From Escherichia coli (GTDB lineage Bacteria; Pseudomonadota; Gammaproteobacteria; Enterobacterales; Enterobacteriaceae), in NCBI RefSeq assembly GCF_003019035.1, contig NZ_CP027447.1: a DNA stretch of 64,000 nt; one strand, given 5' to 3'. How positions within the stretch are numbered: the stretch's first letter is position 1; every line of letters begins with the position of its first letter. Below the pieces are notes generated by a model. It did not search any database, was not told the DNA's origin, and saw nothing but the letters and a program-made list of their open reading frames with translations. A program made the translations under genes and the position numbers. Shown one piece after another: positions 8,891-62,583 of this stretch.

Positions 8891-10785
<1,895 letters not shown>

Positions 10786-12159: not shown

Positions 12160-13242
12160 TCAATTGATCGTCGGCAATGACGGGGTAAAGATGACCGACA
12201 ATTTACCCATATAATATCCCGCCTGTTTTGCCGTCACGTTAAATTTGTCGACCACCAGCGTCAGCGGAGTGGGAACACACATCACAGCGTAACGGATGCC
12301 TGGAAGCACCACCGGGCGGACATGTTTAAGATTGATGTTGGTCCAGACCATGCTCTCATTGTTGCGCACATCAATTTGCCCACCTGATTCCGGGTCATAC
12401 ATTTTGACACGGTAATCAATACGCTCCCCTTCATCCGTTGAGCTCGCGCCCTGACGATAAATCGAAAACGCACCATTACTGCGTCCTGCCGCCGTTTTTC
12501 CCTCATCTTTTAGCAAAATTTCATAGCTAAGACCGTTACCGTTAAAGCCATCGTACAGGCACATATCCAACATCGTCAGATCTTGCGCGTAGTTGTTGCC
12601 GTTAACGCTGCCTGTTGGATGCAAATCCAGTTGTACGCGTGGCGTGGCGTGGGCGAACTCCGGGAAGAACACGTCGATATGGTTGGGATCGAGGGTGTTC
12701 AGGGTAATATCTGCAAAATAGTCCACTGAAGGGCTATTTGAGTGCAGCTTAACCTGCCCTTTCCAAACGCCGCCAATCGGCAACTTCTTCATTTCTGCCT
12801 GCTCAAGGTAAAGCGTAAGAAACTTCTTATCAGCATAATGTGGGGTTGAATCCCCTGATACGTAGCATTTATACCGATTTGAGTCCCTGAGATCCGTTTG
12901 TGCAACGTATCCTTCACACCCTGGAGCCCCGTCAGTGACATAAGCGTTTTTAAATCCTTTGAGCGTAATCGGCCAACGCATACCACTGCGCTGCTCCGTT
13001 AAATAAATTTGTACTGTCGAGAAATTTCCAGAGTCCGAGCAAGTTTGCTGGCTATTGGGATATGAACATTCATACCACATATACGCGTTATTTCCGGAGG
13101 ACTCTTCCTCGTTCCAGAAGTAATAATCCGCTCTGCCAGCGGCCAAATCATAAGTAATTTCAGCCGTCACATTTGGCGTAGCGTGCCCCCCCGCGACCAT
13201 GCCAAATAAGCATAAAACCATGGCAATTAATCGATTTCTCAT
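12160..13242 (-). CDS. class 5 (CS1/CFA-I-type) fimbrial minor/tip adhesin subunit (CooD/CfaE-like)
   Basis: 360 aa with signal peptide (MRNRLIAMVLCLFGMVAGGHA); last gene of a chaperone-pilin-usher-adhesin operon; size and position match CooD/CfaE. Confidence 0.65.
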   Translation of the reverse strand: MRNRLIAMVLCLFGMVAGGHATPNVTAEITYDLAAGRADYYFWNEEESSGNNAYMWYECSYPNSQQTCSDSGNFSTVQIYLTEQRSGMRWPITLKGFKNAYVTDGAPGCEGYVAQTDLRDSNRYKCYVSGDSTPHYADKKFLTLYLEQAEMKKLPIGGVWKGQVKLHSNSPSVDYFADITLNTLDPNHIDVFFPEFAHATPRVQLDLHPTGSVNGNNYAQDLTMLDMCLYDGFNGNGLSYEILLKDEGKTAAGRSNGAFSIYRQGASSTDEGERIDYRVKMYDPESGGQIDVRNNESMVWTNINLKHVRPVVLPGIRYAVMCVPTPLTLVVDKFNVTAKQAGYYMGKLSVIFTPSLPTIN

Positions 13243-15941: not shown

Positions 15942-16013
15942 AATAAATACTAAAATAGTTAAAAGAAGGGAGGACTTGCCTCCCTTTATTGCATGTTAAT
16001 TCTGTTATCCAGA

Positions 16014-16514
16014 TTAGAGAGCCTGGGACAGATAAATGCTAACTACGCCACGGTAGATACCCGTTTCCAGAACACCTTTGGTAGCCTGGGAAAACATCAG
16101 TGGTTTAGCCAGCGAACCGTTAGTTAACGCATCGGAAGCAAAGATTTTCGTTGCGGTAAACGTGGTTGCCGCATCAGCTTTAATCTCTTCACCACCCCAG
16201 GTTACGGTCAGCGGAACAATTTTGCTGGCGTCCAGGCTCTGAACCAGTTGCGCAGGCGAAACTAACTGCATTTTCACGTCTTTGGTCGTGTCATTTGACC
16301 AGATTTTAGTCATTAACTGGTAAGATTGCAGACCCTGACCTGGCAGATATTGCATTTCTACTGCCTTCGGCAGTGCAGTATTATCGGTCTGCGTCATATC
16401 CAGAGCAGCATCAACGTTAGCAGTAACAGTGATATCTTTTTGTACTGCTAATGCAGAACCTGCAACGGAAAACATTGCCGCTACCAGAAGAGATTTTGCG
16501 AATACCTTTTTCAT
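16014..16514 (-). CDS. class 5 fimbrial major pilin subunit (CooA/CfaB-like)
   Basis: 166 aa; signal peptide MKKVFAKSLLVAAMFSVAGSALA; mature region resembles CS1/CFA-I major pilins (ITVTANVD..., C-terminal ...GVVSIYLSQAL). Confidence 0.72.
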   Translation of the reverse strand: MKKVFAKSLLVAAMFSVAGSALAVQKDITVTANVDAALDMTQTDNTALPKAVEMQYLPGQGLQSYQLMTKIWSNDTTKDVKMQLVSPAQLVQSLDASKIVPLTVTWGGEEIKADAATTFTATKIFASDALTNGSLAKPLMFSQATKGVLETGIYRGVVSIYLSQAL

Positions 16515-16543
16515 TACTATTCCTTGGTTTATTACAATGATAA

Positions 16544-17260
16544 TTAATGGACCGCCAGCTCAAACTCGCCATTGTCCTTGGTGATCCAGTTATTATATTT
16601 GACAACGATTTTATCGTAGCCAGATATGCTTTCTAAAACTCTTTCCTGACCAGGGAAAATGTTTTTATTTACGGTCTGTGTTCTGCACTCCGCAGAACCA
16701 CTATTTTTACAATAGGCAATGGTTAATATCTTCAGACGTTGATTGCCATTATTGATTAGCTTTTTATCGGCGTTAATATCTAACTTTGCCACAGGCTGCT
16801 GAGGTGGCACGCTGACAACAATCCCCCAAATTAAGTTAACCGTTAATTGCATGGAGAGATCTTTTTTATTATCTGTTGCATCATCAATGCTGGGTACAGC
16901 TTCAAATTTAACCCGATAGTTTTTTTCTTTTTGCTCAGGTTCCATTGCCACAAAACGCACGGTTTTGCTACTACCGCCAGGCAAAGCAAATTTGGGCGGC
17001 ATTATCACAAGTTGGTTTGCATCGCCTGAAGTTACTTCGATTTCTTTTTCTTGTGGTGTTGATGGATTATCGATACGAAATACGGTTGCCTTTATATATT
17101 GGACTTCATTCGTTTTCGATATTACACGAACACTTCCTTCTCCCTGACTGTTTATAGATACAGACATAGGATATACAGTCATATTAGATTGTGCGAAAAA
17201 TGATGTGCACAGAAGTAAGACAGGCCCGAGCCGTAATAATCGATTAATTTTCGCCACCAT
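16544..17260 (-). CDS. class 5 fimbrial periplasmic chaperone (CooB/CfaA-like)
   Basis: 238 aa with signal peptide; first gene of the operon; size and position match CooB/CfaA. Confidence 0.7.
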   Translation of the reverse strand: MVAKINRLLRLGPVLLLCTSFFAQSNMTVYPMSVSINSQGEGSVRVISKTNEVQYIKATVFRIDNPSTPQEKEIEVTSGDANQLVIMPPKFALPGGSSKTVRFVAMEPEQKEKNYRVKFEAVPSIDDATDNKKDLSMQLTVNLIWGIVVSVPPQQPVAKLDINADKKLINNGNQRLKILTIAYCKNSGSAECRTQTVNKNIFPGQERVLESISGYDKIVVKYNNWITKDNGEFELAVH

Positions 17261-17551
17261 TTAATCAGTTTTACATTATTTCATAAAAAGTTGGCGCATT
17301 AGAAATCATACTATTTTTCAAGTCAACACAAAAAAGCATCTTTAGATAAAATTATTTATTCTCAAAAAAATACAACCTACTGAAAAATATGTTTTTTCAC
17401 AATTCAACATAATCAATTTTAGGAATATATTAATATTCACAACATCAATAAATAATATTATTTCAATCATGCAATTTATATTTTAACAATGGCATACGCA
17501 TGCATAAAGTGGTATGATAACTTTGTCCGCATTCCACTCCTGGAGACGCAT
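17261..17551. promoter_or_regulatory. strongly AT-rich intergenic region: putative fimbrial operon promoter (leftward) and exuR promoter (rightward)
   Basis: About 290 bp of very low GC (runs such as ttatttattctcaaaaaaatacaacc, aatatattaatattcacaacatcaataaataatatt) between divergent genes. Confidence 0.45.
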
Positions 17552-18328
17552 ATGGAAATCACTGAACCACGCCGTTTGTATCAACAACTTGCCGCTGATC
17601 TGAAAGAGCGCATCGAACAGGGCGTCTATCTGGTGGGTGATAAACTGCCTGCCGAACGCTTTATTGCCGATGAAAAAAACGTCAGCCGCACCGTGGTTCG
17701 TGAAGCCATCATCATGCTGGAAGTTGAAGGCTATGTCGAAGTGCGTAAAGGTTCAGGTATTCATGTGGTTTCCAACCAGCCGCGCCATCAGCAATCGGCT
17801 GACAATAATATGGAGTTTGCCAATTACGGTCCGTTTGAGCTACTGCAAGCCCGCCAGCTCATCGAAAGTAATATTGCCGAGTTCGCGGCAACTCAGGTCA
17901 CAAAACAGGACATCATGAAATTGATGGCCATCCAGGAGCAGGCACGCGGCGAACAATGCTTCCGTGATTCCGAGTGGGATTTGCAGTTCCATATTCAGGT
18001 AGCCCTGGCGACGCAGAACTCCGCCCTGGCGGCTATCGTTGAAAAAATGTGGACCCAGCGTAGTCATAACCCGTACTGGAAAAAACTGCACGAACACATT
18101 GATGCCCGTACCGTCGATAACTGGTGTGATGACCACGATCAAATCCTCAAGGCGCTGATTCGCAAAGATCCTCATGCTGCTAAGCTGGCAATGTGGCAGC
18201 ACCTGGAAAACACCAAGATCATGTTATTTAACGAAACCAGCGACGATTTCGAGTTCAATGCCGACCGCTATCTGTTCGCCGAAAACCCGGTGGTGCATCT
18301 CGATACAGCCACCAGCGGCAGTAAATGA
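17552..18328 (+). CDS. exuR: GntR-family hexuronate regulon repressor ExuR
   Basis: ORF 17489-18328 trimmed to [21 protein letters not shown]... (258 aa); GntR-type helix-turn-helix N-terminus. Confidence 0.88.
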
Positions 18329-47730: not shown

Positions 47731-48540
47731 TCACTCCCCGACCAGAATCACTTCAACCCCAGCCTTTCGCAGGCCTTCCAGACTATCCGCAGGAATGCCT
47801 TCATCAACAATGATCATGTCGATACGTTGAGTATCAATGATCTTATGTAAACTGGAACGATTGAACTTACTGGAATCGGTGACCACGATGATCCGTTCCG
47901 CAACTTCGCACATCCGACGGTTTAAACGGGCTTCATCTTCATTATGCGTGCTGACGCCGCGCTCCAGATCGATCGCATCTACACCAAGAAACAGCATATC
48001 GAAGTGGTAATTTTGCAGCGATTGCTCAGCCTGATCACCGTAAAAAGATTGCGACTGACGGCGCAAATGCCCTCCGGTCATCAGCAGCTCAACGCCTTCC
48101 GCTTCCAGCAACGCATTAGCCACGTTCATACCGTTGGTCATCGCAATTACGTCGGTGTGCTTGCGCATCAGACGAGCAATCTCAAAAGTGGTGGTCCCGG
48201 AATCGAGGATCACCCGATGACCTGGCTGAATCAACTCAACGGCAGCTTTCGCAACGCTGCGTTTCATTGCGGTGTTCAGCGCGCTTTTATCTTCCACTGA
48301 TGGCTCGACTGACGGCGTCGTGCTATCGCAGATCAACGCGCCGCCATAGGCACGCACAGCGATCCCCTGCTTTTCCAGAAACGCCAGATCGTTGCGGATC
48401 GTCACAGTAGATACGCCATACAATGCCGACAGATCGTTAACCTGCACACTTCCTTGCTGGCGCAGGCGTTGAATGATCTGCTCTCGTCGCTCACTGGTGC
48501 CTGTCACTCGCTTCTCGCCTGAAGCGTCGGTATTACTCAT
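47731..48540 (-). CDS. agaR: DeoR-family repressor of the aga regulon, AgaR
   Basis: 269 aa; DeoR-type N-terminal helix-turn-helix and sugar-binding C-terminus. Confidence 0.88.
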
Positions 48541-48788
48541 AGTAAGTCCTTTCGTAAAACTTTCGTTTCATTTCGTTTTGCCTATTAACGCCTTTCTATT
48601 AAGCAAATGCAAGCCCACCTTACCCATTGGCGCAAGCTACTCTCGTTTCAGTGGCTTTCATTATGTTTCTTTTGTGAATCAGATCAGAAAACTATTATCT
48701 TTCGTTTTATTTTTATCTCACCATGGCGCAGTATCAACTGAAACAAAACGAAAGATTAATATCGCAGTAATCTGAACTGGAGAGGAAA
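48541..48788. promoter_or_regulatory. agaR / kbaZ divergent promoter region with repeated CTTTCGTTT-type motifs (AgaR-operator-like)
   Basis: Repeats ctttcgtaaaactttcgtttcatttcgtttt, tctttcgttttat and aaacaaaacgaaag in the intergenic region. Confidence 0.5.
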
Positions 48789-50069
48789 GTGAAACATCTG
48801 ACAGAAATGGTGAGACAGCACAAAGAGGGCAAAACAAATGGGATTTATGCCGTTTGTTCCGCACATCCGCTGGTGCTGGAAGCTGCAATCCGCTACGCCA
48901 GTGCAAACCAAACGCCGTTACTGATTGAAGCAACCTCCAATCAGGTGGACCAGTTCGGCGGTTATACCGGAATGACGCCCGCCGATTTTCGCGGCTTTGT
49001 TTGTCAGCTCGCCGACTCGTTGAATTTCCCACAGGATGCGTTGATTCTGGGTGGCGACCATCTGGGGCCAAACCGCTGGCAAAACCTGCCTGCCGCTCAG
49101 GCAATGGCCAATGCCGATGATTTGATTAAAAGCTACGTGGCGGCAGGATTCAAAAAAATTCACCTTGATTGCAGCATGTCCTGTCAGGACGATCCGATTC
49201 CCTTAACTGATGACATCGTGGCCGAACGCGCCGCTCGTCTGGCGAAAGTGGCGGAAGAAACCTGCCGTGAACATTTTGGCGCGGCCGATCTGGAGTATGT
49301 CATTGGTACCGAAGTGCCGGTGCCTGGCGGCGCGCATGAAACCTTAAGCGAGCTGGCGGTCACCACGCCGGATGCCGCCCGCGCCACACTGGAAGCCCAT
49401 CGCCACGCCTTTGAAAAGCAGGGCCTGAATGCCATCTGGCCACGCATTATTGCCCTGGTGGTTCAACCCGGCGTCGAATTCGATCACACCAACGTTATTG
49501 ATTATCAGCCAGCTAAAGCGACCGCCTTAAGCCAGATGGTCGAAAACTACGAAACGCTGATTTTCGAAGCGCACTCAACCGATTACCAAACGCCGCAATC
49601 GTTGCGCCAGCTGGTGATTGACCACTTTGCCATTCTGAAAGTTGGCCCGGCGCTGACCTTCGCCCTGCGTGAAGCTCTGTTCTCTCTGGCGGCGATTGAA
49701 GAAGAACTGGTACCAGCAAAAGCCTGTTCTGGTCTGCGTCAGGTGCTGGAAAACGTGATGCTCGACCGCCCGGAATACTGGCAAAGCCACTACCACGGTG
49801 ACGGCAACGCGCGTCGTCTGGCGCGTGGTTATAGCTACTCGGATCGCGTGCGCTATTACTGGCCGGACAGCCAGATTGATGACGCTTTCGCTCATCTGGT
49901 TCGTAATCTGGCGGATTCACCAATTCCGCTACCGCTCATCAGCCAGTATTTGCCGCTGCAATACGTGAAAGTTCGCTCCGGCGAGCTGCAGCCAACACCA
50001 CGGGAACTCATTATCAACCATATTCAGGACATCCTGGCGCAGTACCACACAGCCTGTGAAGGCCAATAA
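48789..50069 (+). CDS. kbaZ: tagatose-bisphosphate aldolase non-catalytic subunit KbaZ (AgaZ)
   Basis: 426 aa; recognised sequence. Confidence 0.88.
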
Positions 50070-50091
50070 GCAAAACAAAGAGGAACACGCT

Positions 50092-50565
50092 ATGCCAAAT
50101 ATTGTTTTAAGCCGGATTGATGAGCGTTTGATTCACGGTCAGGTCGGCGTTCAGTGGGTCGGATTTGCGGGGGCAAATCTGGTGCTGGTAGCCAACGATG
50201 AGGTTGCCGAAGATCCGGTACAACAAAACCTGATGGAAATGGTACTGGCAGAAGGGATCGCCGTACGTTTCTGGACGCTGCAAAAAGTCATCGACAACAT
50301 TCATCGCGCCGCCGATCGACAGAAAATCCTGCTGGTTTGTAAAACACCTGCCGATTTCCTGACGCTGGTAAAAGGTGGCGTTCCGGTGAATCGCATTAAC
50401 GTTGGCAATATGCACTACGCCAATGGCAAGCAACAAATCGCCAAAACGGTTTCTGTGGATGCGGGTGATATCGCAGCATTTAACGACCTGAAAGCCGCTG
50501 GGGTGGAATGCTTCGTTCAGGGCGTCCCGACAGAGCCTGCAGTGGACCTCTTTAAATTACTTTGA
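50092..50565 (+). CDS. agaV: PTS N-acetylgalactosamine-specific IIB component AgaV
   Basis: ORF trimmed to MPNIVLSRIDERLIHGQVG... (157 aa); mannose-family IIB. Confidence 0.85.
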   Translation: MPNIVLSRIDERLIHGQVGVQWVGFAGANLVLVANDEVAEDPVQQNLMEMVLAEGIAVRFWTLQKVIDNIHRAADRQKILLVCKTPADFLTLVKGGVPVNRINVGNMHYANGKQQIAKTVSVDAGDIAAFNDLKAAGVECFVQGVPTEPAVDLFKLL

Positions 50566-50575
50566 GGGATTCATC

Positions 50576-51355
50576 ATGGAAATCAGTCTGTTGCAGGCAT
50601 TCGCGTTGGGCATTATCGCCTTTATCGCTGGCCTGGATATGTTTAACGGCCTAACCCATATGCACCGCCCGGTGGTCCTCGGCCCGTTGGTCGGGCTGGT
50701 ACTTGGCGATCTGCATACCGGTATTTTAACCGGCGGTACGCTGGAACTGGTGTGGATGGGGCTGGCCCCGCTGGCGGGCGCACAGCCGCCTAACGTGATT
50801 ATCGGTACTATCGTCGGCACGGCGTTTGCCATTACTACTGGCGTGAAACCCGATGTCGCGGTCGGTGTCGCCGTACCTTTCGCTGTCGCAGTACAGATGG
50901 GGATTACCTTCCTGTTCTCGGTGATGTCCGGCGTGATGTCCCGATGCGACCGGATGGCGGAGAACGCCGATACTCGCGGCATTGAACGCGTGAACTATCT
51001 GGCACTGCTGGCACTCGGCACTTTCTATTTTCTCTGCGCTTTCCTGCCTATCTACTTCGGCGCGGAACATGCAAAAACCATCATTGATGTCCTGCCGCAA
51101 CGATTAATCGACGGCCTCGGCGTCGCGGGCGGCATCATGCCAGCAATCGGTTTTGCCGTGTTGCTGAAAATCATGATGAAAAACGTCTACATCCCCTACT
51201 TCATCCTGGGCTTTGTTGCCGCAGCCTGGCTCAAGTTACCGGTGTTGGCTATTGCTGCCGCTGCGCTGGCGATGGCGCTGATCGACCTGCTGCGTAAATC
51301 TCCTGAACCGACTCAACCTGCGGCACAGAAAGAGGAATTTGAAGATGGCATCTAA
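50576..51355 (+). CDS. agaW: PTS N-acetylgalactosamine-specific IIC component AgaW (full length)
   Basis: 259 aa mannose-family IIC; intact here, whereas K-12 retains only a truncated remnant as I recall. Confidence 0.8.
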   Translation: MEISLLQAFALGIIAFIAGLDMFNGLTHMHRPVVLGPLVGLVLGDLHTGILTGGTLELVWMGLAPLAGAQPPNVIIGTIVGTAFAITTGVKPDVAVGVAVPFAVAVQMGITFLFSVMSGVMSRCDRMAENADTRGIERVNYLALLALGTFYFLCAFLPIYFGAEHAKTIIDVLPQRLIDGLGVAGGIMPAIGFAVLLKIMMKNVYIPYFILGFVAAAWLKLPVLAIAAAALAMALIDLLRKSPEPTQPAAQKEEFEDGI

Positions 51356-52223
51356 TCAAACCACCCTGCCGAACGTCAGCGAAAATGAAGAAACACTGCT
51401 GACTGGCGTCAATGAAAACGTGTATGAAGATCAGAGCATTGGCGCGGAGCTGACGAAAAAAGATATCAACCGCGTCGCCTGGCGTTCCATGTTGTTACAG
51501 GCTTCTTTCAACTACGAACGTATGCAGGCTTCCGGCTGGCTGTACGGCCTGCTGCCAGCACTGAAAAAGATCCACACTAATAAACGCGACCTGGCGCGCG
51601 CTATGAAGGGGCATATGGGTTTCTTCAATACCCATCCGTTTCTGGTGACGTTTGTTATCGGCATTATCCTTGCGATGGAGCGTTCTAAGCAGGACGTTAA
51701 CAGTATTCAGAGCACCAAAATTGCCGTCGGTGCGCCGCTCGGCGGGATTGGCGATGCGATGTTCTGGCTAACGCTACTGCCGATTTGTGGCGGGATAGGT
51801 GCAAGCCTCGCGCTACAAGGCTCTATTCTTGGCGCTGTCGTCTTTATTGTGCTGTTCAACGTGGTGCACCTGGGGCTGCGTTTTGGTCTGGCGCATTATG
51901 CTTACCGCATGGGCGTGGCGGCGATTCCACTCATTAAAGCAAATACCAAAAAAGTCGGCCATGCTGCGTCTATCGTTGGGATGACGGTAATCGGCGCGCT
52001 GGTGGCAACCTATGTTCGTTTAAGCACCACGCTGGAAATCACAGCGGGCGACGCAGTGGTTAAGTTACAGGCTGATGTTATCGACAAACTGATGCCTGCC
52101 TTCTTACCACTGGTCTACACCCTGACCATGTTCTGGCTGGTACGCCGCGGCTGGAGTCCGCTGCGCCTGATTGCAGTTACCGTGGTTCTCGGCATCGTCG
52201 GTAAATTCTGCCATTTCCTTTAA
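51339..52223 (+). CDS. agaE: PTS N-acetylgalactosamine-specific IID component AgaE
   Basis: 294 aa mannose-family IID; start may be a few codons downstream. Confidence 0.8.
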   Translation: MKMASNQTTLPNVSENEETLLTGVNENVYEDQSIGAELTKKDINRVAWRSMLLQASFNYERMQASGWLYGLLPALKKIHTNKRDLARAMKGHMGFFNTHPFLVTFVIGIILAMERSKQDVNSIQSTKIAVGAPLGGIGDAMFWLTLLPICGGIGASLALQGSILGAVVFIVLFNVVHLGLRFGLAHYAYRMGVAAIPLIKANTKKVGHAASIVGMTVIGALVATYVRLSTTLEITAGDAVVKLQADVIDKLMPAFLPLVYTLTMFWLVRRGWSPLRLIAVTVVLGIVGKFCHFL

Positions 52224-52240
52224 ATACAATGAGGTATTAG

Positions 52241-52675
52241 ATGTTAAGTATTATTTTGACAGGGCATGGCGGGTTTGCCAGCGGCATGGAAAAAGCAATG
52301 AAGCAAATCCTCGGCGAGCAATCGCAGTTTATTGCCATCGATTTTCCCGAAACCTCAAGCACCGCGCTGCTTACATCGCAGCTTGAAGAGGCCATCGTCC
52401 AACTGGATTGTGAAGACGGCATTGTTTTTCTGACGGATTTGCTGGGCGGCACGCCGTTTCGCGTAGCTTCAACGCTGGCGATGCAAAAACCGGGCTGTGA
52501 AGTGATCACCGGCACAAATTTGCAACTATTACTGGAAATGGTGCTGGAGCGCGAAGGGTTAAGCGGTGAAGAGTTCCGTGTGCAGGCGCTGGAGTGTGGA
52601 CACCGTGGGCTGACCAGTCTGGTGGACGAACTTGGTCGCTGCCATGAGGAATGTCCGGTCGAGGAAGGAATATGA
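52241..52675 (+). CDS. agaF: PTS mannose-family IIA component AgaF
   Basis: 144 aa; N-terminal MLSIILTGHGGFA IIA-type motif. Confidence 0.8.
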   Translation: MLSIILTGHGGFASGMEKAMKQILGEQSQFIAIDFPETSSTALLTSQLEEAIVQLDCEDGIVFLTDLLGGTPFRVASTLAMQKPGCEVITGTNLQLLLEMVLEREGLSGEEFRVQALECGHRGLTSLVDELGRCHEECPVEEGI

Positions 52676-53805
52676 CACACGTTCTGCGCGCCAGAAGGCT
52701 GCTGACCGAAGAGGGATGGCTCGATGACCATCAGTTGCGTATTGCTGACGGTGTAATCGCAGCAATCGAACCGATTCCAGTGGGCGTGACTGAACGCGAT
52801 GCGGAACTGCTCTGCCCCGCTTACATCGACACCCATGTACACGGTGGTGCGGGCGTTGATGTAATGGATGACGCGCCGGATGCGCTCGACAAGCTGGCAA
52901 TGCACAAGGCACGCGAAGGTGTCGGCAGTTGGTTACCGACCACCGTAACCGCGCCGCTTAATACCATTCATGCGGCGCTGAAACGTATTGCTCTACGCTG
53001 CCAGCGTGGCGGACCTGGTGCGCAAGCGCTGGGGAGTTATCTCGAAGGACCGTACTTCACGCCGCAGAATAAAGGCGCGCATCCGCCGGAGCTGTTTCGC
53101 GAGCTGGAAATTGCCGAGCTGGATCAATTGATTGCCGTTTCTCAGCACACCTTGCGCGTGGTAGCGCTGGCACCAGAAAAAGAAGGGGCATTGCAGGCCA
53201 TCCGCCATCTTAAACAGCAAAACGTACGGGTGATGCTGGGGCATAGCGCGGCGACCTGGCAACAAACCCGTGCCGCGTTTGACGCTGGTGCCGACGGCCT
53301 GGTGCATTGCTATAACGGGATGACAGGTTTACATCACCGCGAACCGGGAATGGTTGGCGCGGGATTAACGAACAAGCGCGCCTGGCTGGAACTGATAGCC
53401 GATGGTCATCATGTACATCCGGCGGCGATGTCGCTGTGTTGTTGCTGTGCGAAAGAGAGAATCGTGCTGATCACCGACGCGATGCAGGCAGCCGGGATGC
53501 CGGATGGTCGCTATACGTTATGTGGTGAAGAAGTGCAGATGCACGATGGCGTTGTCCGTACCGCGTCCGGTGGGCTGGCGGGCAGTACGCTGTCTGTCGA
53601 TGCGGCAGTGCGCAACATGGTCGAGTTGACGGGCGTAACGCCTGCGGAAGCCATCCATATGGCATCGCTGCATCCGGCGCGTATGCTGGGTGTTGATGGT
53701 GTTCTGGGATCGCTTAAACCGGGCAAACGCGCCAGCGTCGTTGCGCTGGATAGCGGGCTGCATGTGCAACAAATCTGGATTCAGGGTCAATTAGCTTCGT
53801 TTTGA
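52672..53805 (+). CDS. agaA: N-acetylgalactosamine-6-phosphate deacetylase AgaA (full length)
   Basis: ORF trimmed to MTHVLRARRLL... (377 aa); start overlaps the agaF stop; NagA-like amidohydrolase. Confidence 0.82.
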   Translation: MTHVLRARRLLTEEGWLDDHQLRIADGVIAAIEPIPVGVTERDAELLCPAYIDTHVHGGAGVDVMDDAPDALDKLAMHKAREGVGSWLPTTVTAPLNTIHAALKRIALRCQRGGPGAQALGSYLEGPYFTPQNKGAHPPELFRELEIAELDQLIAVSQHTLRVVALAPEKEGALQAIRHLKQQNVRVMLGHSAATWQQTRAAFDAGADGLVHCYNGMTGLHHREPGMVGAGLTNKRAWLELIADGHHVHPAAMSLCCCCAKERIVLITDAMQAAGMPDGRYTLCGEEVQMHDGVVRTASGGLAGSTLSVDAAVRNMVELTGVTPAEAIHMASLHPARMLGVDGVLGSLKPGKRASVVALDSGLHVQQIWIQGQLASF

Positions 53806-53874
53806 TGGTTTGCTCCTTTATTGGGCCTTCACTTCCCCCGTAAGGCCTTTCTTTTTCTTTCGTTGTGCTCTGTG

Positions 53875-53940
53875 CAGGGTGTCGGATGCGACGCTGACGC
53901 GTCTTCTTCGACCTACGGTACGCCGCATCCGGCAATCGGT
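53875..53940. repeat. REP-like palindromic repeats
   Basis: gtcggatgcgacgctgacgcgtcttcttcgacc ... acggtacgccgcatccggca. Confidence 0.6.
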
Positions 53941-53989
53941 GAACATAGCGACGTTATCACGCAATCCTTTAATCTTCCCTTGTCTTTTC

Positions 53990-54154
53990 TTTCAATGATC
54001 ACAAATTTCGTTTTATTTCTTTTTTCTCCATTGAACTTTCAGTTTCTTTTCTATAGATTTTAATCAACGAAAGACATCACCAAGTGAAATGAAACGAAAG
54101 GTAAGCGAAAGCGACAACGCCCGACGTCAAGTTCATCAGACTAAGGATTGAGTT
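53990..54154 (+). promoter_or_regulatory. agaS promoter region with AgaR-operator-like repeats
   Basis: AT-rich region with ctttcagtttctttt, gaaatgaaacgaaag and gcgaaagcg motifs similar to those at agaR/kbaZ. Confidence 0.45.
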
Positions 54155-55309
54155 ATGCCAGAAAATTACACCCCTGCTGCTGCCGCAACCGGTACATGGA
54201 CTGAAGAAGAGATCCGCCATCAGCCTCGCGCATGGATCCGTTCACTCACCAACATCGACGCGCTACGTTCCGCGCTCAATAACTTCCTTGAACCGTTACT
54301 GCGCAAAGAGAATCTGCGGGTAATCCTGACCGGAGCCGGAACCTCGGCATTTATCGGTGACATCATCGCGCCGTGGCTCGCCAGCCATACCGGTAAAAAC
54401 TTCAGCGCCGTACCGACCACCGATCTGGTCACTAATCCGATGGACTACCTGAATCCAGCTCATCCGCTACTGTTGATCTCCTTCGGTCGATCCGGCAACA
54501 GCCCGGAAAGCGTCGCCGCCGTGGAACTGGCGAATCAGTTTGTACCGGAATGCTATCACCTGCCGATCACCTGCAACGAAGCGGGCGCTCTTTACCAAAA
54601 CGCGATCAACAGCGACAACGCGTTTGCCCTGCTGATGCCCGCAGAAACGCACGATCGCGGCTTTGCGATGACCAGCAGCATTACCACCATGATGGCCAGC
54701 TGCCTCGCGGTTTTCGCACCTGAGACGATCAACAGCCAGAGCTTCTGCGACGTGGCGGATCGTTGCCAGGCGATCCTGACCTCACTGGGCGATTTCAGCG
54801 CAGGTGTGTTTGGTTACGCACCGTGGAAACGGATCGTTTATCTCGGCAGCGGTGGCTTACAGGGCGCAGCACGCGAGTCGGCGCTGAAAGTACTGGAACT
54901 GACGGCGGGTAAACTGGCGGCCTTTTATGATTCCCCGACCGGATTCCGTCATGGCCCGAAATCGCTGGTCGATAACGAAACGCTGGTGGTGGTGTTTGTC
55001 TCCAGCCACCCTTACACCCGTCAGTATGATCTTGATCTGCTGGCAGAACTCCGCCGCGATAACCAGGCATTGCGCGTAATCGCCATCGCCGCGGAAAGCA
55101 ACGACGTTATTACCGCCGGTCCACATATCATCCTGCCGCCGTCCCGTCACTTTATCGACGTTGAGCAGGCATTTTGCTTCCTGATGTACGCCCAGACATT
55201 TGCACTGATGCAGTCGCTGCACATGGGTAATACGCCGGATACCCCATCAGCCAGTGGCACCGTTAACCGCGTGGTGCAAGGCGTAATCATTCATCCGTGG
55301 CAGGCATAA
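54155..55309 (+). CDS. agaS: SIS-domain galactosamine-6-phosphate deaminase/isomerase AgaS
   Basis: 384 aa; recognised sequence. Confidence 0.88.
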   Translation: MPENYTPAAAATGTWTEEEIRHQPRAWIRSLTNIDALRSALNNFLEPLLRKENLRVILTGAGTSAFIGDIIAPWLASHTGKNFSAVPTTDLVTNPMDYLNPAHPLLLISFGRSGNSPESVAAVELANQFVPECYHLPITCNEAGALYQNAINSDNAFALLMPAETHDRGFAMTSSITTMMASCLAVFAPETINSQSFCDVADRCQAILTSLGDFSAGVFGYAPWKRIVYLGSGGLQGAARESALKVLELTAGKLAAFYDSPTGFRHGPKSLVDNETLVVVFVSSHPYTRQYDLDLLAELRRDNQALRVIAIAAESNDVITAGPHIILPPSRHFIDVEQAFCFLMYAQTFALMQSLHMGNTPDTPSASGTVNRVVQGVIIHPWQA

Positions 55310-56182
<873 letters not shown>

Positions 56183-56348
56183 TCATTAGTTTTTTATGAT
56201 TTATCCCAATGTACTTCCCGATTAATATCGGGAAGTGCCTTAATGGAAAAGGAGATGACTAAACCTTAATAAATACATCAGTACAATATCGCAACAATAA
56301 TATATTTAAAAAAATTATATTATTCAACTTTATGGTGAGGATTACACA

Positions 56349-56825
56349 ATGAGCAGTCCAAATATTCTCTTAACCCGTATTGATAACCGTCTGGTTCACG
56401 GTCAGGTTGGCGTGACCTGGACATCCACCATCGGTGCGAATCTGTTGGTAGTCGTGGATGATGTTGTCGCTAACGATGATATTCAACAGAAATTAATGGG
56501 TATTACCGCAGAAACCTACGGCTTTGGCATTCGTTTCTTTACTATCGAAAAAACCATTAACGTCATCGGCAAAGCTGCACCGCATCAGAAGATCTTCCTG
56601 ATTTGCCGTACGCCACAAACGGTACGTAAATTGGTAGAAGGTGGTATTGACCTGAAAGATGTCAACGTCGGCAATATGCATTTCTCGGAAGGGAAAAAGC
56701 AAATCAGCAGTAAAGTTTATGTCGATGACCAGGATCTCACGGACTTACATTTTATTAAACAACGTGGCGTGAATGTTTTCATTCAGGACGTCCCTGGCGA
56801 TCAAAAAGAACAAATCCCTGACTAA
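56349..56825 (+). CDS. agaB: PTS galactosamine-specific IIB component AgaB
   Basis: 158 aa; paralogous to agaV (ILLTRIDNRLVHGQVGV). Confidence 0.88.
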   Translation: MSSPNILLTRIDNRLVHGQVGVTWTSTIGANLLVVVDDVVANDDIQQKLMGITAETYGFGIRFFTIEKTINVIGKAAPHQKIFLICRTPQTVRKLVEGGIDLKDVNVGNMHFSEGKKQISSKVYVDDQDLTDLHFIKQRGVNVFIQDVPGDQKEQIPD

Positions 56826-56863
56826 ATCTAAAATCGCCTTAATATTGGTTTGAGGTAATAAAA

Positions 56864-57667
56864 ATGCATGAAATAACCCTACTCCAGGGATTATCCCTGG
56901 CGGCGTTAGTTTTCTTTCTGGGGATTGATTTTTGGCTGGAAGCCTTATTTTTATTCCGCCCGATAATCGTTTGTACCCTTACAGGTGCTATTCTCGGTGA
57001 TATTCAGACTGGCTTAATTACCGGTGGCCTGACAGAGTTGGCTTTCGCCGGATTAACCCCTGCAGGTGGTGTTCAGCCGCCCAACCCGATTATGGCGGGT
57101 CTGATGACCACCGTCATTGCATGGTCTACGGGCGTTGATGCCAAAACGGCAATTGGTCTTGGCCTGCCGTTTAGTTTGTTAATGCAGTACGTCATTCTGT
57201 TCTTCTATTCCGCTTTCTCATTATTTATGACCAAAGCCGATAAATGCGCAAAAGAGGCGGATACGGCAGCATTTTCCCGACTTAACTGGACAACGATGCT
57301 CATCGTCGCTTCAGCGTATGCGGTGATTGCTTTCCTCTGTACTTACCTGGCACAAGGGGCGATGCAGGCGCTGGTGAAAGCGATGCCCGCCTGGCTGACC
57401 CACGGCTTTGAAGTGGCTGGCGGTATTCTGCCTGCCGTTGGTTTTGGCTTGCTGCTGCGCGTGATGTTCAAAGCGCAATATATCCCTTACCTGATCGCCG
57501 GTTTCCTGTTCGTTTGCTACATCCAGGTCAGCAACCTGTTGCCGGTTGCCGTGCTGGGCGCAGGCTTTGCGGTGTATGAGTTTTTCAATGCGAAATCCCG
57601 GCAGCAAGCGCAACCGCAGCCCGTTGCCAGTAAAAATGAAGAAGAGGACTACAGCAATGGGATCTGA
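56864..57667 (+). CDS. agaC: PTS galactosamine-specific IIC component AgaC
   Basis: 267 aa; paralogous to agaW. Confidence 0.88.
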   Translation: MHEITLLQGLSLAALVFFLGIDFWLEALFLFRPIIVCTLTGAILGDIQTGLITGGLTELAFAGLTPAGGVQPPNPIMAGLMTTVIAWSTGVDAKTAIGLGLPFSLLMQYVILFFYSAFSLFMTKADKCAKEADTAAFSRLNWTTMLIVASAYAVIAFLCTYLAQGAMQALVKAMPAWLTHGFEVAGGILPAVGFGLLLRVMFKAQYIPYLIAGFLFVCYIQVSNLLPVAVLGAGFAVYEFFNAKSRQQAQPQPVASKNEEEDYSNGI

Positions 57668-58448
57668 AATCAGTAAAAAAGATATCACCCGTCTGGGCTT
57701 TCGTTCGTCACTGCTACAAGCAAGCTTTAACTACGAAAGGATGCAGGCGGGCGGTTTTACCTGGGCGATGTTGCCGATCCTGAAAAAGATTTATAAGGAC
57801 GACAAACCGGGCCTAAGCGCGGCGATGAAAGATAACCTCGAATTTATTAATACCCACCCGAATCTGGTCGGATTTCTGATGGGGTTATTAATTTCGATGG
57901 AAGAAAAAGGAGAAAACCGCGACACCATTAAAGGCCTCAAAGTGGCACTGTTTGGCCCAATCGCCGGGATTGGCGATGCGATTTTCTGGTTTACCTTATT
58001 GCCGATTATGGCGGGAATTTGCTCATCATTTGCCAGCCAGGGAAACTTGCTGGGGCCGATTCTATTTTTCGCCGTTTACCTGCTTATCTTCTTCCTGCGC
58101 GTCGGCTGGACCCACGTCGGTTATTCAGTCGGCGTGAAGGCGATCGATAAAGTGCGAAAGAACTCGCAGATGATTGCTCGTTCGGCAACCATCCTCGGGA
58201 TCACGGTAATCGGCGGGCTGATCGCTTCGTATGTGCATATTAACGTGGTGACATCGTTTGCCATCGACAGTACCCACAGCGTCGCACTGCAGCAGGATTT
58301 CTTCGATAAAGTCTTCCCGAACATTTTACCGATGGCCTACACCCTGCTGATGTATTACTTCCTGCGGGTGAAAAAAGCGCATCCGGTGCTGTTAATCGGC
58401 GTGACTTTTGTGCTCTCTATTGTTTGTTCCGCATTCGGCATTTTGTAA
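57657..58448 (+). CDS. agaD: PTS galactosamine-specific IID component AgaD
   Basis: ORF 57546-58448 trimmed to MGSEISKKDITRLGFRSS... (263 aa); 11 nt overlap with agaC. Confidence 0.85.
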   Translation: MGSEISKKDITRLGFRSSLLQASFNYERMQAGGFTWAMLPILKKIYKDDKPGLSAAMKDNLEFINTHPNLVGFLMGLLISMEEKGENRDTIKGLKVALFGPIAGIGDAIFWFTLLPIMAGICSSFASQGNLLGPILFFAVYLLIFFLRVGWTHVGYSVGVKAIDKVRKNSQMIARSATILGITVIGGLIASYVHINVVTSFAIDSTHSVALQQDFFDKVFPNILPMAYTLLMYYFLRVKKAHPVLLIGVTFVLSIVCSAFGIL

Positions 58449-59216
58449 ATGGAACGAGGCACTGCGTCTGGCGGTGCCTCTTTACTTAAGGAATTTCATC
58501 CTGTGCAAACCCTTCAACAAGTTGAAAACTATACGGCGTTAAGTGAACGTGCCAGCGAATATTTATTGGCCGTGATCCGTAGTAAACCGGATGCCGTGAT
58601 TTGCCTGGCGACCGGAGCCACGCCATTACTGACGTATCATTATCTGGTAGAAAAAATCCACCAGCAGCAGGTTGATGTCAGCCAGCTCACCTTCGTGAAG
58701 CTCGACGAATGGGTGGATCTGCCATTAACAATGCCTGGCACCTGCGAAACTTTCCTACAACAGCATATCGTGCAGCCGCTGGGGCTGCGTGAAGACCAGC
58801 TCATCAGCTTTCGCTCTGAAGAGATAAATGAGACAGAGTGCGAACGGGTAACGAACCTGATTGCGCGCAAAGGCGGTCTGGATTTATGCGTTCTCGGATT
58901 GGGGAAAAACGGTCATCTTGGGCTGAACGAACCGGGAGAAAGCCTGCAACCGGCCTGCCATATCAGTCAACTTGATGCCAGAACACAGCAACATGAGATG
59001 TTAAAAACCGCGGGCCGTCCCGTGACTCGTGGGATCACCTTAGGCCTGAAGGATATTCTCAATACCCGCGAAGTTTTGCTACTGGTGACTGGCGAAGGAA
59101 AGCAGGATGCGACAGAACGTTTTCTCACGGCTAAAGTCTCTACCGCTATCCCGGCTTCGTTTTTATGGCTGCATAACCATTTCACATGCGTGATTGATGA
59201 AATGTGTCGTCGTTAA
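58449..59216 (+). CDS. agaI: putative galactosamine-6-phosphate deaminase/isomerase AgaI (NagB family)
   Basis: 255 aa; ATG immediately follows the agaD stop; NagB/glucosamine-6-P deaminase-like. Confidence 0.82.
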   Translation: MERGTASGGASLLKEFHPVQTLQQVENYTALSERASEYLLAVIRSKPDAVICLATGATPLLTYHYLVEKIHQQQVDVSQLTFVKLDEWVDLPLTMPGTCETFLQQHIVQPLGLREDQLISFRSEEINETECERVTNLIARKGGLDLCVLGLGKNGHLGLNEPGESLQPACHISQLDARTQQHEMLKTAGRPVTRGITLGLKDILNTREVLLLVTGEGKQDATERFLTAKVSTAIPASFLWLHNHFTCVIDEMCRR

Positions 59217-59265
59217 CTCGCCTAGTAAAGGCGTTGTAGCGCTATTCCTGCTGCAACGCCTGTAA

Positions 59266-60129
59266 TCACTCTCCCTGCTGCTCCAGTGCATACTTATACA
59301 GCGCATTTTTCTTCACGCCGTGAATTTCTGCTGCCAGCGCCGCCGCTTTTTTCAGTGGCAGTTCTGCCTGCAACAGCGCCAGCGTGCGCAGGGCATCGGC
59401 GGGTAAGTCTTCTTCCTGTGCTTTATGGCCTTCGACAATCAGTACCATTTCGCCTTTGCGACGGTTTTCATCTTCTTTGACCCACGCCAGCAGCTCGCCA
59501 ACGGGCGCGCCGTGAATGGTTTCCCAGGTTTTGGTCAGCTCACGCGCCAGAACGACGTAGCGGGATTCGCCTAATACCGCAACGATATCTTCCAGGCTAT
59601 CTAACAGACGGTGGGTAGATTCATAAAAAATCAGCGTGCGCGGCTCCGCTTCAATGGCTTTTAGCGCATCACGGCGGCCTTTTGATTTGGCAGGTAAAAA
59701 GCCTTCATAACAAAAACGATCGGATGGTAAACCCGCGGCGCTTAACGCAGTGATAGCAGCACACGGCCCGGGTAGCGGCACCACGCGAATCCCCGCTTCA
59801 CGGCAGGTACGCACCAGATGGTAGCCAGGATCGTTAATTAGCGGCGTTCCGGCATCGGAAACCAGCGCAATGTTTTGCCCCTCTTGCAGCTTCGCCAGCA
59901 GCGTTTCGGCTTTTTGTTGTTCGTTATGGTCGTGCAGCGCAAACAACCGAGCATTAATCCCAAAATGTTGCAGCAATAAACCGGTGTGACGCGTATCCTC
60001 GGCGGCAATCAGATCAACGGCCTGTAATACCTCCAACGCACGCTGGGTGATATCCGCCAGATTGCCGATTGGCGTCGGTACAATGTAAAGCTGGCCCTGA
60101 GAATTATCCGCCGATTGGTGTTGTTTCAT
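59266..60129 (-). CDS. rsmI: 16S rRNA C1402 2'-O-methyltransferase RsmI
   Basis: 287 aa; recognised sequence; divergent from lpoA. Confidence 0.88.
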
Positions 60130-60193
60130 TGTGTCGTCCGTATTGCCGATTTAATATTGAGCATTGCGTAAAAAAAATATCACTGGATACATT

Positions 60194-62230
60194 ATGGTAC
60201 CCTCAACATTTTCTCGTTTGAAAGCCGCGCGTTGTCTGCCTGTTGTTCTGGCAGCCCTGATTTTCGCCGGTTGTGGCACCCATACTCCCGATCAGTCCAC
60301 TGCTTATATGCAGGGCACGGCGCAGGCTGATTCTGCCTTTTACCTGCAACAGATGCAGCAAAGTTCTGATGATACCAGGATCAACTGGCAATTACTCGCC
60401 ATTCGTGCACTGGTGAAAGAAGGTAAAACCGGACAGGCGGTGGAGTTGTTTAACCAACTACCGCAAGAACTGAACGATTCTCAGCGTCGCGAGAAAACAC
60501 TGCTGGCGGCAGAGATTAAACTGGCGCAGAAAGATTTTGCTGGCGCGCAAAACTTGCTGGCGAAAATCACACCTGCAGATTTAGAACAAAACCAGCAAGC
60601 GCGTTACTGGCAGGCAAAAATCGATGCCAGCCAGGGGCGTCCTTCCATTGATTTACTGCGCGCGTTAATTGCTCAGGAACCGCTGCTCGGCGCGAAAGAA
60701 AAGCAGCAGAATATTGACGCCACCTGGCAGGCGCTCTCCTCCATGACTCAGGAACAGGCGAATACGCTGGTGATCAATGCCGACGAAAATATTCTGCAAG
60801 GCTGGTTGGATCTGCAGCGCATCTGGTTTGATAACCGTAACGATCCCGACATGATGAAAGCCGGGATCGCCGACTGGCAGAAACGTTATCCGAACAACCC
60901 GGGCGCGAAAATGCTGCCAACGCAGTTGGTTAACGTAAAAGCGTTTAAACCCGCATCGACCAACAAAATCGCCCTGCTGTTGCCACTGAATGGCCAGGCA
61001 GCGGTATTTGGTCGCACTATTCAGCAAGGCTTTGAAGCGGCGAAAAATATCGGCACTCAGCCAGTGGCGGCCCAGGTAGCTGCCGCACCTGCCGCAGACG
61101 TAGCAGAACAACCTCAGCCGCAAACCGTGGATGGCGTTGCCAGCCCGGCACAAGCCTCGGTTAGCGATCTGACCGGTGAACAACCTGCGGCCCAGCCGGT
61201 GCCTGTAAGCGCCCCGGCGGCAACCACCGCAGCGGTAAGCGCACCCGCGAATCCATCCGCAGAGCTGAAAATCTACGATACATCATCACAACCACTTAGC
61301 CAGATCCTCAACCAGGTTCAACAGGATGGCGCGAGTATTGTGGTCGGTCCGTTGCTGAAAAATAACGTTGAAGAGTTGCTGAAGAGCAACACCCCGCTGA
61401 ACGTGCTGGCACTGAACCAGCCGGAGAACATCGAAAACCGCGTCAATATTTGTTACTTCGCGCTTTCACCGGAAGACGAAGCGCGCGATGCAGCGCGTCA
61501 TATTCGTGACCAGGGTAAACAAGCGCCGCTGGTGCTGATCCCACGCAGTTCATTGGGCGATCGCGTAGCCAATGCGTTTGCGCAAGAGTGGCAGAAACTG
61601 GGTGGCGGCACCGTTCTGCAACAAAAATTTGGTTCCACCAGCGAATTACGCGCAGGTGTTAACGGCGGTTCGGGTATTGCTTTAACGGGTAGCCCGATTA
61701 CTCCCAGAGCGACAACCGACTCCGGCATGACGACCAACAATCCAACGCTGCAAACCACGCCAACCGATGACCAGTTCACCAATAATGGCGGCCGTGTCGA
61801 TGCGGTGTACATTGTGGCAACGCCGGGCGAAATCGCTTTTATCAAACCGATGATCGCCATGCGTAACGGTAGCCAGAGCGGTGCAACGCTGTACGCAAGC
61901 TCCCGAAGCGCACAAGGCACCGCGGGTCCGGATTTCCGTCTGGAAATGGAAGGTTTGCAATATAGCGAAATCCCGATGCTGGCGGGCGGTAATCTGCCAT
62001 TAATGCAGCAGGCGCTCAGCGCGGTGAACAACGATTATTCGCTGGCTCGCATGTATGCGATGGGCGTTGATGCCTGGTCGTTGGCAAATCATTTCTCACA
62101 AATGCGCCAGGTTCAGGGTTTCGAAATCAACGGTAATACCGGAAGTCTGACGGCTAACCCGGATTGCGTGATTAACAGGAAGTTATCATGGCTACAGTAC
62201 CAACAAGGTCAGGTAGTCCCCGCCAGTTAA
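60194..62230 (+). CDS. lpoA: outer membrane lipoprotein activator of PBP1A, LpoA
   Basis: ORF trimmed to [27 protein letters not shown]... (678 aa, lipobox LIFAGC); A/P/Q-rich linker. Confidence 0.88.
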
Positions 62231-62583
62231 CCACCAAACAGACCGGCGATGCGTGGGAAGCACAAGCGCGTCGCTGGCTGGAAGGCAAAGGACTGCGGTT
62301 TATCGCCGCTAACGTGAACGAGCGTGGCGGCGAGATCGATCTGATAATGCGTGAAGGCAGGACCACCGTTTTTGTCGAGGTGCGTTACCGCCGCTCTGCG
62401 CTTTATGGCGGCGCGGCAGCCAGTGTGACCCGCAGCAAACAACACAAATTATTACAGACTGCCCGCTTGTGGCTCGCGCGTCATAATGGGAGTTTTGATA
62501 CTGTGGATTGCCGGTTCGATGTGGTAGCCTTCACCGGGAATGAGGTTGAGTGGATTAAGGATGCCTTTAATGACCACTCATAA
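62188..62583 (+). CDS. yraN: UPF0102 family protein YraN
   Basis: 131 aa; overlaps the lpoA 3' end; synteny. Confidence 0.82.

What the first reader, a model, noticed from the sequence alone, without database searches (positions are those of the whole stretch)
59217..59265. agaI lies directly next to rsmI: the yraHIJK fimbrial operon found here in K-12 is absent
Only 49 bp, containing a small hairpin (aggcgttg...caacgcct), separate the agaI stop from the rsmI stop. As I recall, K-12 has a four-gene chaperone-usher fimbrial operon (yraH, yraI, yraJ, yraK) between agaI and rsmI. Together with the fimbrial gain at exuT-exuR, this strain has a different fimbrial repertoire from K-12 at two loci in one window.
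Basis: partly seen in the sequence, partly recalled or inferred. Interest (0 to 1): 0.4.

Follow-up and report, generated by a model that had tools for sequence, protein, structure and literature searches.

The report
Known yra-fimbriae-less agaI–rsmI junction
This E. coli strain (phylogroup F) has agaI directly next to rsmI because it carries the common, old version of this locus that lacks the yraHIJK fimbrial operon found in K-12, which is an ordinary, already described difference between E. coli lineages and not a fresh deletion.

Summary
agaI (58449-59216, +) and rsmI (59266-60129, -) converge across a 49-bp spacer holding a real hairpin (59229-59261).

This is not a strain-specific deletion. 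Homology to K-12 stops inside both genes' 3' ends (59173/59273), so 99 bp here replace 5,484 low-GC bp in K-12, with no flanking repeats or yra remnants.

The 99-bp segment occurs once each in 1,869 of 5,426 complete E. coli genomes, including ST131, E2348/69 and UM146. The yra segment occurs in 3,523 genomes; every record examined had it at this locus.

E. albertii has the same 49-bp spacer and agaI tail and aligns collinearly across the junction at 91%, like its flanks. E. whittamii shares K-12's breakpoints. Both haplotypes therefore predate the species.

The window is identical to strain SCU-301 (phylogroup F, ST967), whose chromosome has no match to a 1.4-kb yraJ probe at about 85% identity or more.

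Published work already states that the E/B1/A lineage acquired yra.

The hairpin is conserved with compensatory changes and also sits beside rsmI in yra-bearing genomes. It is probably a transcript 3'-end structure.

Verdict: ordinary, already known, low interest.

The parts
58449..59216 (+). agaI (galactosamine-6-phosphate isomerase), 255 aa, the last gene of a complete aga cluster
   Evidence: ORF; NF007291 at 472 bits; RefSeq annotation WP_012311721.1.
59174..59216 (+). Haplotype-specific 3' tail of agaI (…H-NHFTCVIDEMCRR*). K-12 has …H-SNFICLINT* instead.
   Evidence: only 12 of 31 nt are identical to K-12, although the F-x-C-[VL]-I motif is kept; the same tail occurs in E. albertii and E. 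coli E69.
59174..59272 (.). 99-bp segment specific to the yra-less haplotype. It stands in place of 5,484 bp (yraHIJK plus spacers) in K-12.
   Evidence: One search gives the homology breaks at 59173/59174 and 59272/59273. One search finds it in 1,869 of 5,426 genomes, one copy each; every record listed had it at agaI or agaI|rsmI.
59217..59265 (.). 49-bp convergent intergenic spacer (the finding's own coordinates)
   Evidence: The identical 49-bp geometry is seen in APEC O18, ST131 strain 81009, RMDEC465, Z142-2, E69 and E. albertii.
59229..59261 (.). Conserved hairpin with a 13-pair stem and 7-nt loop. It is a probable shared 3'-end or terminator-like structure of the convergent agaI and rsmI transcripts.
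   Evidence: dG -21.6, z -4.35; all homologues fold at -18 to -27 kcal/mol; 89% of cells pair, and 6 of 13 pairs show changes on both sides.
59266..60129 (-). rsmI (16S rRNA C1402 2'-O-methyltransferase), 287 aa, one C-terminal Glu longer than the K-12 protein
   Evidence: the protein is 100% identical to that of E. albertii NBRC 107761.

Best explanation
The window carries the inherited yra-less haplotype of the agaI-rsmI locus. It was not produced by a recent deletion. In this haplotype the aga operon ends 49 bp from the end of the convergent rsmI gene, and the spacer is occupied by a conserved stem-loop. The alternative haplotype, found in K-12, O157:H7 and most A/B1/E strains, has a 5.5-kb low-GC cassette (yraH-yraI-yraJ-yraK with an AT-rich upstream spacer) between agaI and that same stem-loop. 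The two haplotypes differ from inside the last ~14 codons of agaI to inside the last codons of rsmI. They have no bounding repeats, so they are exchanged as alleles by homologous recombination in the flanking genes and not by a mobile element (inferred). The phylogroup F strain here simply retains the state that is also present in B2 strains and in E. albertii. The consequence is one fewer (cryptic) chaperone-usher fimbria than K-12. The stem-loop most likely acts as an RNA 3'-end or termination structure for the convergent transcripts (inferred, not shown).
For: K-12 gene order and breakpoints come: 99 bp here against 5,484 bp there, 45% GC against 52% in the flanks, and 27% GC in the K-12 agaI tail plus agaI-yraH spacer. 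Population data: the junction-spanning query is contiguous in 1,835 genomes, the 99-bp segment is in 1,869 genomes with one copy each, and the yra segment is in 3,523 genomes, always chromosomal; every record listed had it at agaI and/or rsmI. Together these account for 5,392 of 5,426 genomes. Age of the haplotypes: E. albertii aligns in one collinear HSP over window 56801-62300 at 91.4%, and the junction bin is 91%. It has the same 49-bp spacer and agaI tail. E. whittamii breaks at the same points as K-12, and its yra genes are 80-85% identical to K-12's. Citrobacter youngae, C. werkmanii and Citrobacter sp. FP75, Trabulsiella, two Phytobacter species, an Enterobacter and a metagenome-assembled genome also have agaI directly beside rsmI. 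No repeats bound the K-12 segment, and there is no yra remnant in the 99 bp. The strain is SCU-301, phylogroup F/ST967 (PMC11251922). It has no match to the 1.4-kb yraJ probe at about 85% identity or more elsewhere. [quoted passage not shown] Hairpin conservation and covariation come.
Against: Polarity is not fully settled. yra-type operons lie directly downstream of rsmI in E. whittamii, Escherichia sp. MOD1-EC7003, Klebsiella spallanzanii, K. oxytoca, Citrobacter sp. MGH106 and Superficieibacter. An ancient yra beside rsmI followed by loss is therefore also possible. E. fergusonii and the other cryptic clades were not sampled. I did not build a phylogroup-resolved tree of the 5,426 genomes. 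The hairpin has no U-tract and is not called by the terminator scan, so its function is inferred only from conservation. The covariation test rests on 10 sequences, partly aligned across haplotypes.
Confidence: 0.8

Rival explanations
1. Recent deletion: this strain or its immediate lineage descended from a K-12-like agaI-yraHIJK-rsmI ancestor and excised the operon, leaving the 49-bp spacer as a scar.
For: K-12 and about 65% of complete genomes carry the operon at exactly this place. Partial deletions and IS disruptions of yra do occur in some strains (hits H83-H90).
Against: The 99-bp junction segment has no similarity to either end of the K-12 segment beyond chance 15-20-mers. No direct repeats bound the segment. 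The agaI tail is a different sequence and is not a truncated K-12 tail. The same junction is found in 1,869 genomes, including distant B2 lineages, and in E. albertii at ordinary interspecies divergence.
Confidence: 0.03
2. Ancient loss: a yra-type operon beside rsmI is ancestral in Escherichia or the Enterobacteriaceae. The yra-less haplotype arose once by an old deletion that kept the rsmI-proximal hairpin, and was then inherited or spread by recombination to E. albertii and to E. coli B2/F lineages.
For: yra-type operons abut rsmI in several genera and in two other Escherichia species. In K-12 and E. whittamii the hairpin lies between yraK and rsmI, so a deletion from the agaI stop to the yraK stop would leave exactly the present architecture.
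Against: The direct agaI|rsmI junction also occurs in several other genera, and in three Citrobacter species it carries a stem with the same core sequence. The yra cassette is low-GC relative to its flanks, which is typical of acquired DNA. A published ancestral reconstruction infers gain in the E/B1/A lineage (PMC6896753). B2, F and other yra-less groups are usually placed as early-branching E. coli lineages (my background knowledge), which would demand several losses or a re-import.
Confidence: 0.17

Closest known systems
Yra (yraHIJK) cryptic chaperone-usher fimbrial operon polymorphism of E. coli, reported as acquired by the E/B1/A root lineage (González-Alba et al. 2019, PMC6896753) and as an unevenly distributed YraJ usher (Stubenrauch et al. 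2017, PMC5717340)
   Same: The locus, the gene order in K-12 and the presence/absence pattern are the same. The operon is present in K-12 (A), O157:H7 (E) and O111 strains, and absent in the phylogroup F strain here and in B2 strains (ST131, ST95 APEC O18, E2348/69, UM146).
   Different: Nothing differs about the polymorphism itself. This analysis adds nucleotide-level breakpoints (inside the agaI and rsmI 3' ends), the sharing of each haplotype with another Escherichia species, and a third, highly divergent yra-like allele in Escherichia sp. MOD1-EC7003.
Fixed-locus gain and loss of chaperone-usher fimbrial clusters in E. coli (Wurpel et al. 2013, PMC3559732)
   Same: The fimbrial type occupies one chromosomal position. 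It is either intact, disrupted or absent between conserved core genes, with no mobile-element hallmarks.
   Different: The Wurpel text does not discuss Yra by name (it appears only in the figure matrix), and junction sequences were not analysed there.
Stem-loop between convergent genes (bidirectional intrinsic terminator or 3'-end protective hairpin)
   Same: A GC-rich 13-pair stem lies in a short spacer between two convergent stop codons. It is conserved and shows compensatory substitutions.
   Different: There is no U-tract on either strand, and no hit from the terminator scan or from Rfam. It is single-copy, so it is not a REP/BIME element.

Membership tests
yra-less agaI|rsmI haplotype of Escherichia | agaI and rsmI are convergent and separated by about 49 bp with no intervening gene | tested here: met
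   The geometry is identical in 6 other genomes.
yra-less agaI|rsmI haplotype of Escherichia | The haplotype-specific 99-bp segment (agaI tail HNHFTCVIDEMCRR*, spacer, rsmI terminal codon) is shared with other yra-less genomes | tested here: met
   1,869 genomes at 88-99% identity, single copy. E. albertii and E69.
yra-less agaI|rsmI haplotype of Escherichia | Orthology of the junction across species, meaning collinear alignment at background divergence | tested here: met
   a single HSP with E. albertii at 91.4%, with the junction bin at 91%.
Yra chaperone-usher fimbrial operon (yraHIJK) | Presence of usher, chaperone and subunit genes homologous to YraH/I/J/K | tested here: not met
   no tblastn hit at E<=1e-5 in the window. 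SCU-301's chromosome has no match to the 1.4-kb yraJ probe at about 85% identity or more. (distant mode) shows only the weak paralogous-usher hits that every genome has.
Deletion scar or mobile-element excision site | Short direct repeats or terminal inverted repeats bounding the variable segment, or remnants of the lost DNA | tested here: not met
   no repeats at L001 ~3517 or ~9000; only chance 15-20-nt matches between the 99 bp and the 5,484 bp.
Rho-independent (intrinsic) terminator | GC-rich stem-loop | tested here: met
   13 pairs, -21.6 kcal/mol, z -4.35.
Rho-independent (intrinsic) terminator | Run of U immediately 3' of the stem | tested here: not met
   0 terminator-like sites. The tails are GUAAUCACU on the + strand and UUUACUAGG on the - strand.
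Rho-independent (intrinsic) terminator | Transcripts end at the structure | not testable with these tools
   This needs Term-seq or 3'-RACE.
REP/BIME-type repeated extragenic palindrome | Many dispersed copies per genome | tested here: not met
   exactly one place per genome; no second paired copy of the stem in the window.
Known RNA families (Rfam 15) | Covariance-model match | tested here: not met
   no match at E<=1 in 59000-59500.

The most novel reading that the evidence does not exclude
The agaI-rsmI interval is a long-lived, trans-species multi-allelic locus with three states: empty, the K-12/E. whittamii-type yra, and a yra-like operon only 53-65% identical in Escherichia sp. MOD1-EC7003. 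These states would be kept or repeatedly exchanged across Escherichia species by selection on fimbrial repertoire. The conserved rsmI-proximal hairpin and the agaI 3' end would serve as the fixed recombination boundaries.
Probability: 0.3. Interest if true: 0.3.

Novelty: already known. Interest (0 to 1): 0.1.

Why it matters
It matters little beyond bookkeeping. It confirms that the strain (phylogroup F, ST967) has the fimbrial complement expected for its lineage. It lacks the cryptic Yra fimbriae of K-12 and carries a CS1-type cluster at exuT-exuR. The useful correction is for annotation and comparative work. K-12 should not be taken as the ancestral reference here, because the 'missing' operon is most likely an addition in K-12's lineage. 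The difference also reaches into the last codons of agaI and rsmI, so both proteins have haplotype-specific C-termini.

Tried and rejected
Approaches that gave nothing or were rejected:

- The Rfam scan of 59000-59500 found nothing.
- The consensus promoter/terminator scan of 58900-59600 found nothing.
- The local alignment of the 99-bp segment against the 5,484-bp K-12 segment gave only chance matches.
- The repeat search at the edges of the K-12 segment found no bounding repeats.
- The stem 13-mer is not a dispersed repeat in the window.
- A chimeric query (this strain's CS1-usher allele plus K-12 yraJ) was used to probe the whole SCU-301 genome. In distant mode it was ambiguous, because every genome gives about 4 weak paralogous-usher places. 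The near-mode repeat was clean.
- The Wurpel et al. 2013 text does not mention Yra, so it supports only the general fixed-locus principle.
- I considered whether the exuT-exuR operon could be a relocated Yra or UshC relative. It is not: it is a CS1/CblD/TcfC type and has no tblastn similarity to Yra proteins.
- I considered E. whittamii as a recent donor of K-12's yra and rejected it. The yra genes are 80-85% identical, which is lower than the flanks at 89-95%.

Full report
**1. Observation**

The ORF list places agaI at 58449..59216 (+, 255 aa) and rsmI at 59266..60129 (-, 287 aa).

NCBIfam equivalog models confirm both genes. Galactosamine-6-phosphate isomerase scores 472 bits and 16S rRNA C1402 2'-O-methyltransferase scores 629 bits. 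The upstream gene is agaD.

The spacer hairpin is real. Its arms are 59229-59241 and 59249-59261, forming 13 pairs at -21.6 kcal/mol with z = -4.35. It has no U-tract and is not called as an intrinsic terminator. Rfam finds nothing there.

**2. Comparison with K-12**

Homology between the window and K-12 runs at 97-98% up to window 59173 and resumes at 59273. So 99 bp here correspond to 5,484 bp in K-12.

Both breakpoints lie inside coding 3' ends:
- AgaI ends …HNHFTCVIDEMCRR* here and …HSNFICLINT* in K-12.
- RsmI has one extra terminal Glu here.

The K-12 segment is 45% GC against 52% in its flanks. Its agaI tail plus the agaI-yraH spacer is only 27% GC.

The 99 bp contain no yra remnant, and the K-12 segment is not bounded by direct or inverted repeats. 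There is therefore no deletion scar and no mobile-element signature.

**3. Population frequency**

Among 5,426 complete E. coli genomes:
- A junction-spanning query is contiguous in 1,835 genomes.
- The 99-bp segment is found in 1,869 genomes, exactly once each. Every record listed had it at agaI or agaI|rsmI. These include ST131, E2348/69 and UM146.
- The K-12 yra segment is found in 3,523 genomes. It is always chromosomal, and every record listed had it at agaI and/or rsmI, sometimes disrupted by an IS or partly deleted.

The two classes account for 5,392 of 5,426 genomes.

B2 strains APEC O18 and 81009, together with RMDEC465 and Z142-2, all show the same geometry: a 768-nt agaI, a 49-bp gap and an 864-nt rsmI.

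**4. Identity of the strain, and whether yra lies elsewhere**

Window 40000-64000 is 100% identical to E. coli SCU-301, a commensal of phylogroup F, ST967 (PMC11251922).

No Yra homologue is present in the window. A chimeric query, made of this strain's own CS1-usher allele fused to 1.4 kb of K-12 yraJ, gives SCU-301 a single place in megablast mode. There are no plasmid matches anywhere in the collection. So no sequence matching the yraJ probe at about 85% identity or more exists elsewhere in that genome.

In the more sensitive mode SCU-301 has four further weak places, which is typical of paralogous ushers (median genome 4).

**5. Outgroups**

A scan of one genome per species with RsmI returned 80 loci. 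I screened them with K-12 proteins.

*Direct agaI|rsmI junctions* occur in:
- E. albertii and E. coli E69
- Citrobacter youngae, C. werkmanii and Citrobacter sp. FP75
- Trabulsiella and two Phytobacter species
- an Enterobacter and a metagenome-assembled genome

*yra-type operons directly downstream of rsmI* occur in:
- E. whittamii (83-90% aa identity, with agaI beyond)
- Escherichia sp. MOD1-EC7003 (only 53-65% aa identity, with agaI beyond)
- Klebsiella spallanzanii and K. oxytoca
- Citrobacter sp. MGH106
- Superficieibacter

E. albertii has the same 49-bp spacer and the same AgaI tail as the window. It aligns with the window as one collinear HSP (56801-62300) at 91.4% identity. The 100-bp bin containing the junction is 91%, the same as the flanks. 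The junction is therefore orthologous between the two species and is not a recent event.

E. whittamii breaks at the same two positions as K-12. Its yra genes are 80-85% identical to K-12's, which is more diverged than the flanks at 89-95%. So the yra-bearing haplotype is also old and shared between species.

**6. The hairpin**

All yra-less Escherichia spacers fold into the same stem, at -22 to -27 kcal/mol.

A stem with the same core (CGTTGC…GCAACG) also lies between yraK and rsmI in K-12 and E. whittamii. It lies in the agaI-rsmI spacer of three Citrobacter species as well.

On a 10-sequence alignment, 89% of cells pair, against 20-50% in slid registers. Six of 13 pairs show changes on both sides, including G-C to A-U in E69. 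Only 0-7 of 500 shuffles reach the observed values.

The element is single-copy, so it is not a REP element.

I infer that it is a conserved RNA 3'-end or termination structure beside rsmI, and that the yra cassette sits between agaI and this structure. The function is not shown.

**7. Direction of change**

Evidence that the yra-less state is the older one at this junction in E. coli:
- the orthologous junction in E. albertii
- the low GC of the cassette
- direct junctions in several other genera, with the homologous hairpin in three Citrobacter species

Evidence the other way comes from the yra-type operons beside rsmI in several genera and in two other Escherichia species. These keep an ancient-loss scenario alive, and I give it about 0.17.

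A recent strain-level deletion is effectively excluded.

The likely mode of exchange is homologous recombination with crossovers in the agaI and rsmI 3' ends. I infer this from the abrupt transition from about 97% identity to unalignable sequence, and from the absence of repeats.

**8. What is already known**

The uneven distribution of YraJ among E. coli lineages is described in Stubenrauch et al. 2017 (PMC5717340), which also reports its mutual exclusion with the related usher UshC. Expression of yra genes restricted to A/B1 isolates is described in PMC4128348. Wurpel et al. 2013 describe the fixed-locus gain and loss of fimbrial clusters (PMC3559732).

The finding is therefore a correct rediscovery of a documented lineage-level polymorphism.

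**9. Verdict**

- The state is ancestral or old, not a new deletion.
- Novelty: already known.
- Interest: about 0.1.
- The only mildly new details are the nucleotide-level breakpoints inside both genes, the trans-species sharing of both haplotypes, a third divergent allele in another Escherichia species, and the covarying hairpin.

Noticed in passing
window 12160-17260 (- strand), between exuT (10666-12084) and exuR (17489-18328): This is a four-gene CS1/CblD/TcfC-type (alternate chaperone-usher) fimbrial operon. A full-length match occurs in 1,903 of 5,426 genomes, but most are only about 85% identical to this allele. Near-identical copies (99% or more) are in SCU-172, LR-28 and UPEC 536. 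It co-occurs with yra in strain 2014C-4423, so the two loci vary independently.
   Followed up: partly
L016 (Escherichia sp. MOD1-EC7003), about 20-5,030 bp downstream of the rsmI match end at locus position 1677: A yra-like operon lies at the same agaI-rsmI position but is only 53-65% identical in protein to K-12 YraHIJK, while the flanking agaD and rsmI are 97%. This is a third, highly divergent allele class at this locus.
   Followed up: partly
hit H52, NZ_CM187552.1 (strain named EcST1193 MDBZ1340), 4090704-4096187: By its name this is an ST1193 strain, and ST1193 is listed as phylogroup B2 in PMC11251922. It carries a yra segment 100.0% identical to K-12's. Other B2 strains are yra-less, which suggests a recent recombinational import from a phylogroup A donor.
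   Followed up: no
window 47731-59216: The strain has a complete 13-gene aga/kba cluster: agaR, kbaZ, agaV, agaW, agaE, agaF, agaA (annotated as nagA), agaS, kbaY, agaB, agaC, agaD and agaI. From my own knowledge, K-12 has a deletion within agaW-agaA, so this strain should be able to use N-acetylgalactosamine. I did not check this here.
   Followed up: no
L002:102-799 (E. coli FDAARGOS_497, one of the closest relatives at the junction): An IS1 insertion splits agaB in this otherwise near-identical locus.
   Followed up: no
hits H83-H90 (O157:H7 strains, AMA1167, AR62.2, EC25): Many yra-bearing genomes have degraded operons. There is an IS1203 insertion or an internal deletion affecting yraK in O157:H7 and related strains, IS1 replacing yraH-yraI, and larger deletions reaching agaI. 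This is consistent with weak selection on this cryptic operon.
   Followed up: no
L010, L012, L018 (Citrobacter youngae, C. werkmanii, Citrobacter sp. FP75), the 141-bp agaI-rsmI spacer: Besides the conserved hairpin, the Citrobacter spacer contains three tandem copies of a 15-nt unit (TTCTTCCGACATTTC) between the hairpin and rsmI.
   Followed up: no
window 60194-62230 (lpoA): The 678-aa LpoA protein had no NCBIfam hit at E<=0.001, although RefSeq names it LpoA. The mechanical ORF list starts it 30 nt upstream, at a TTG at 60164.
   Followed up: no
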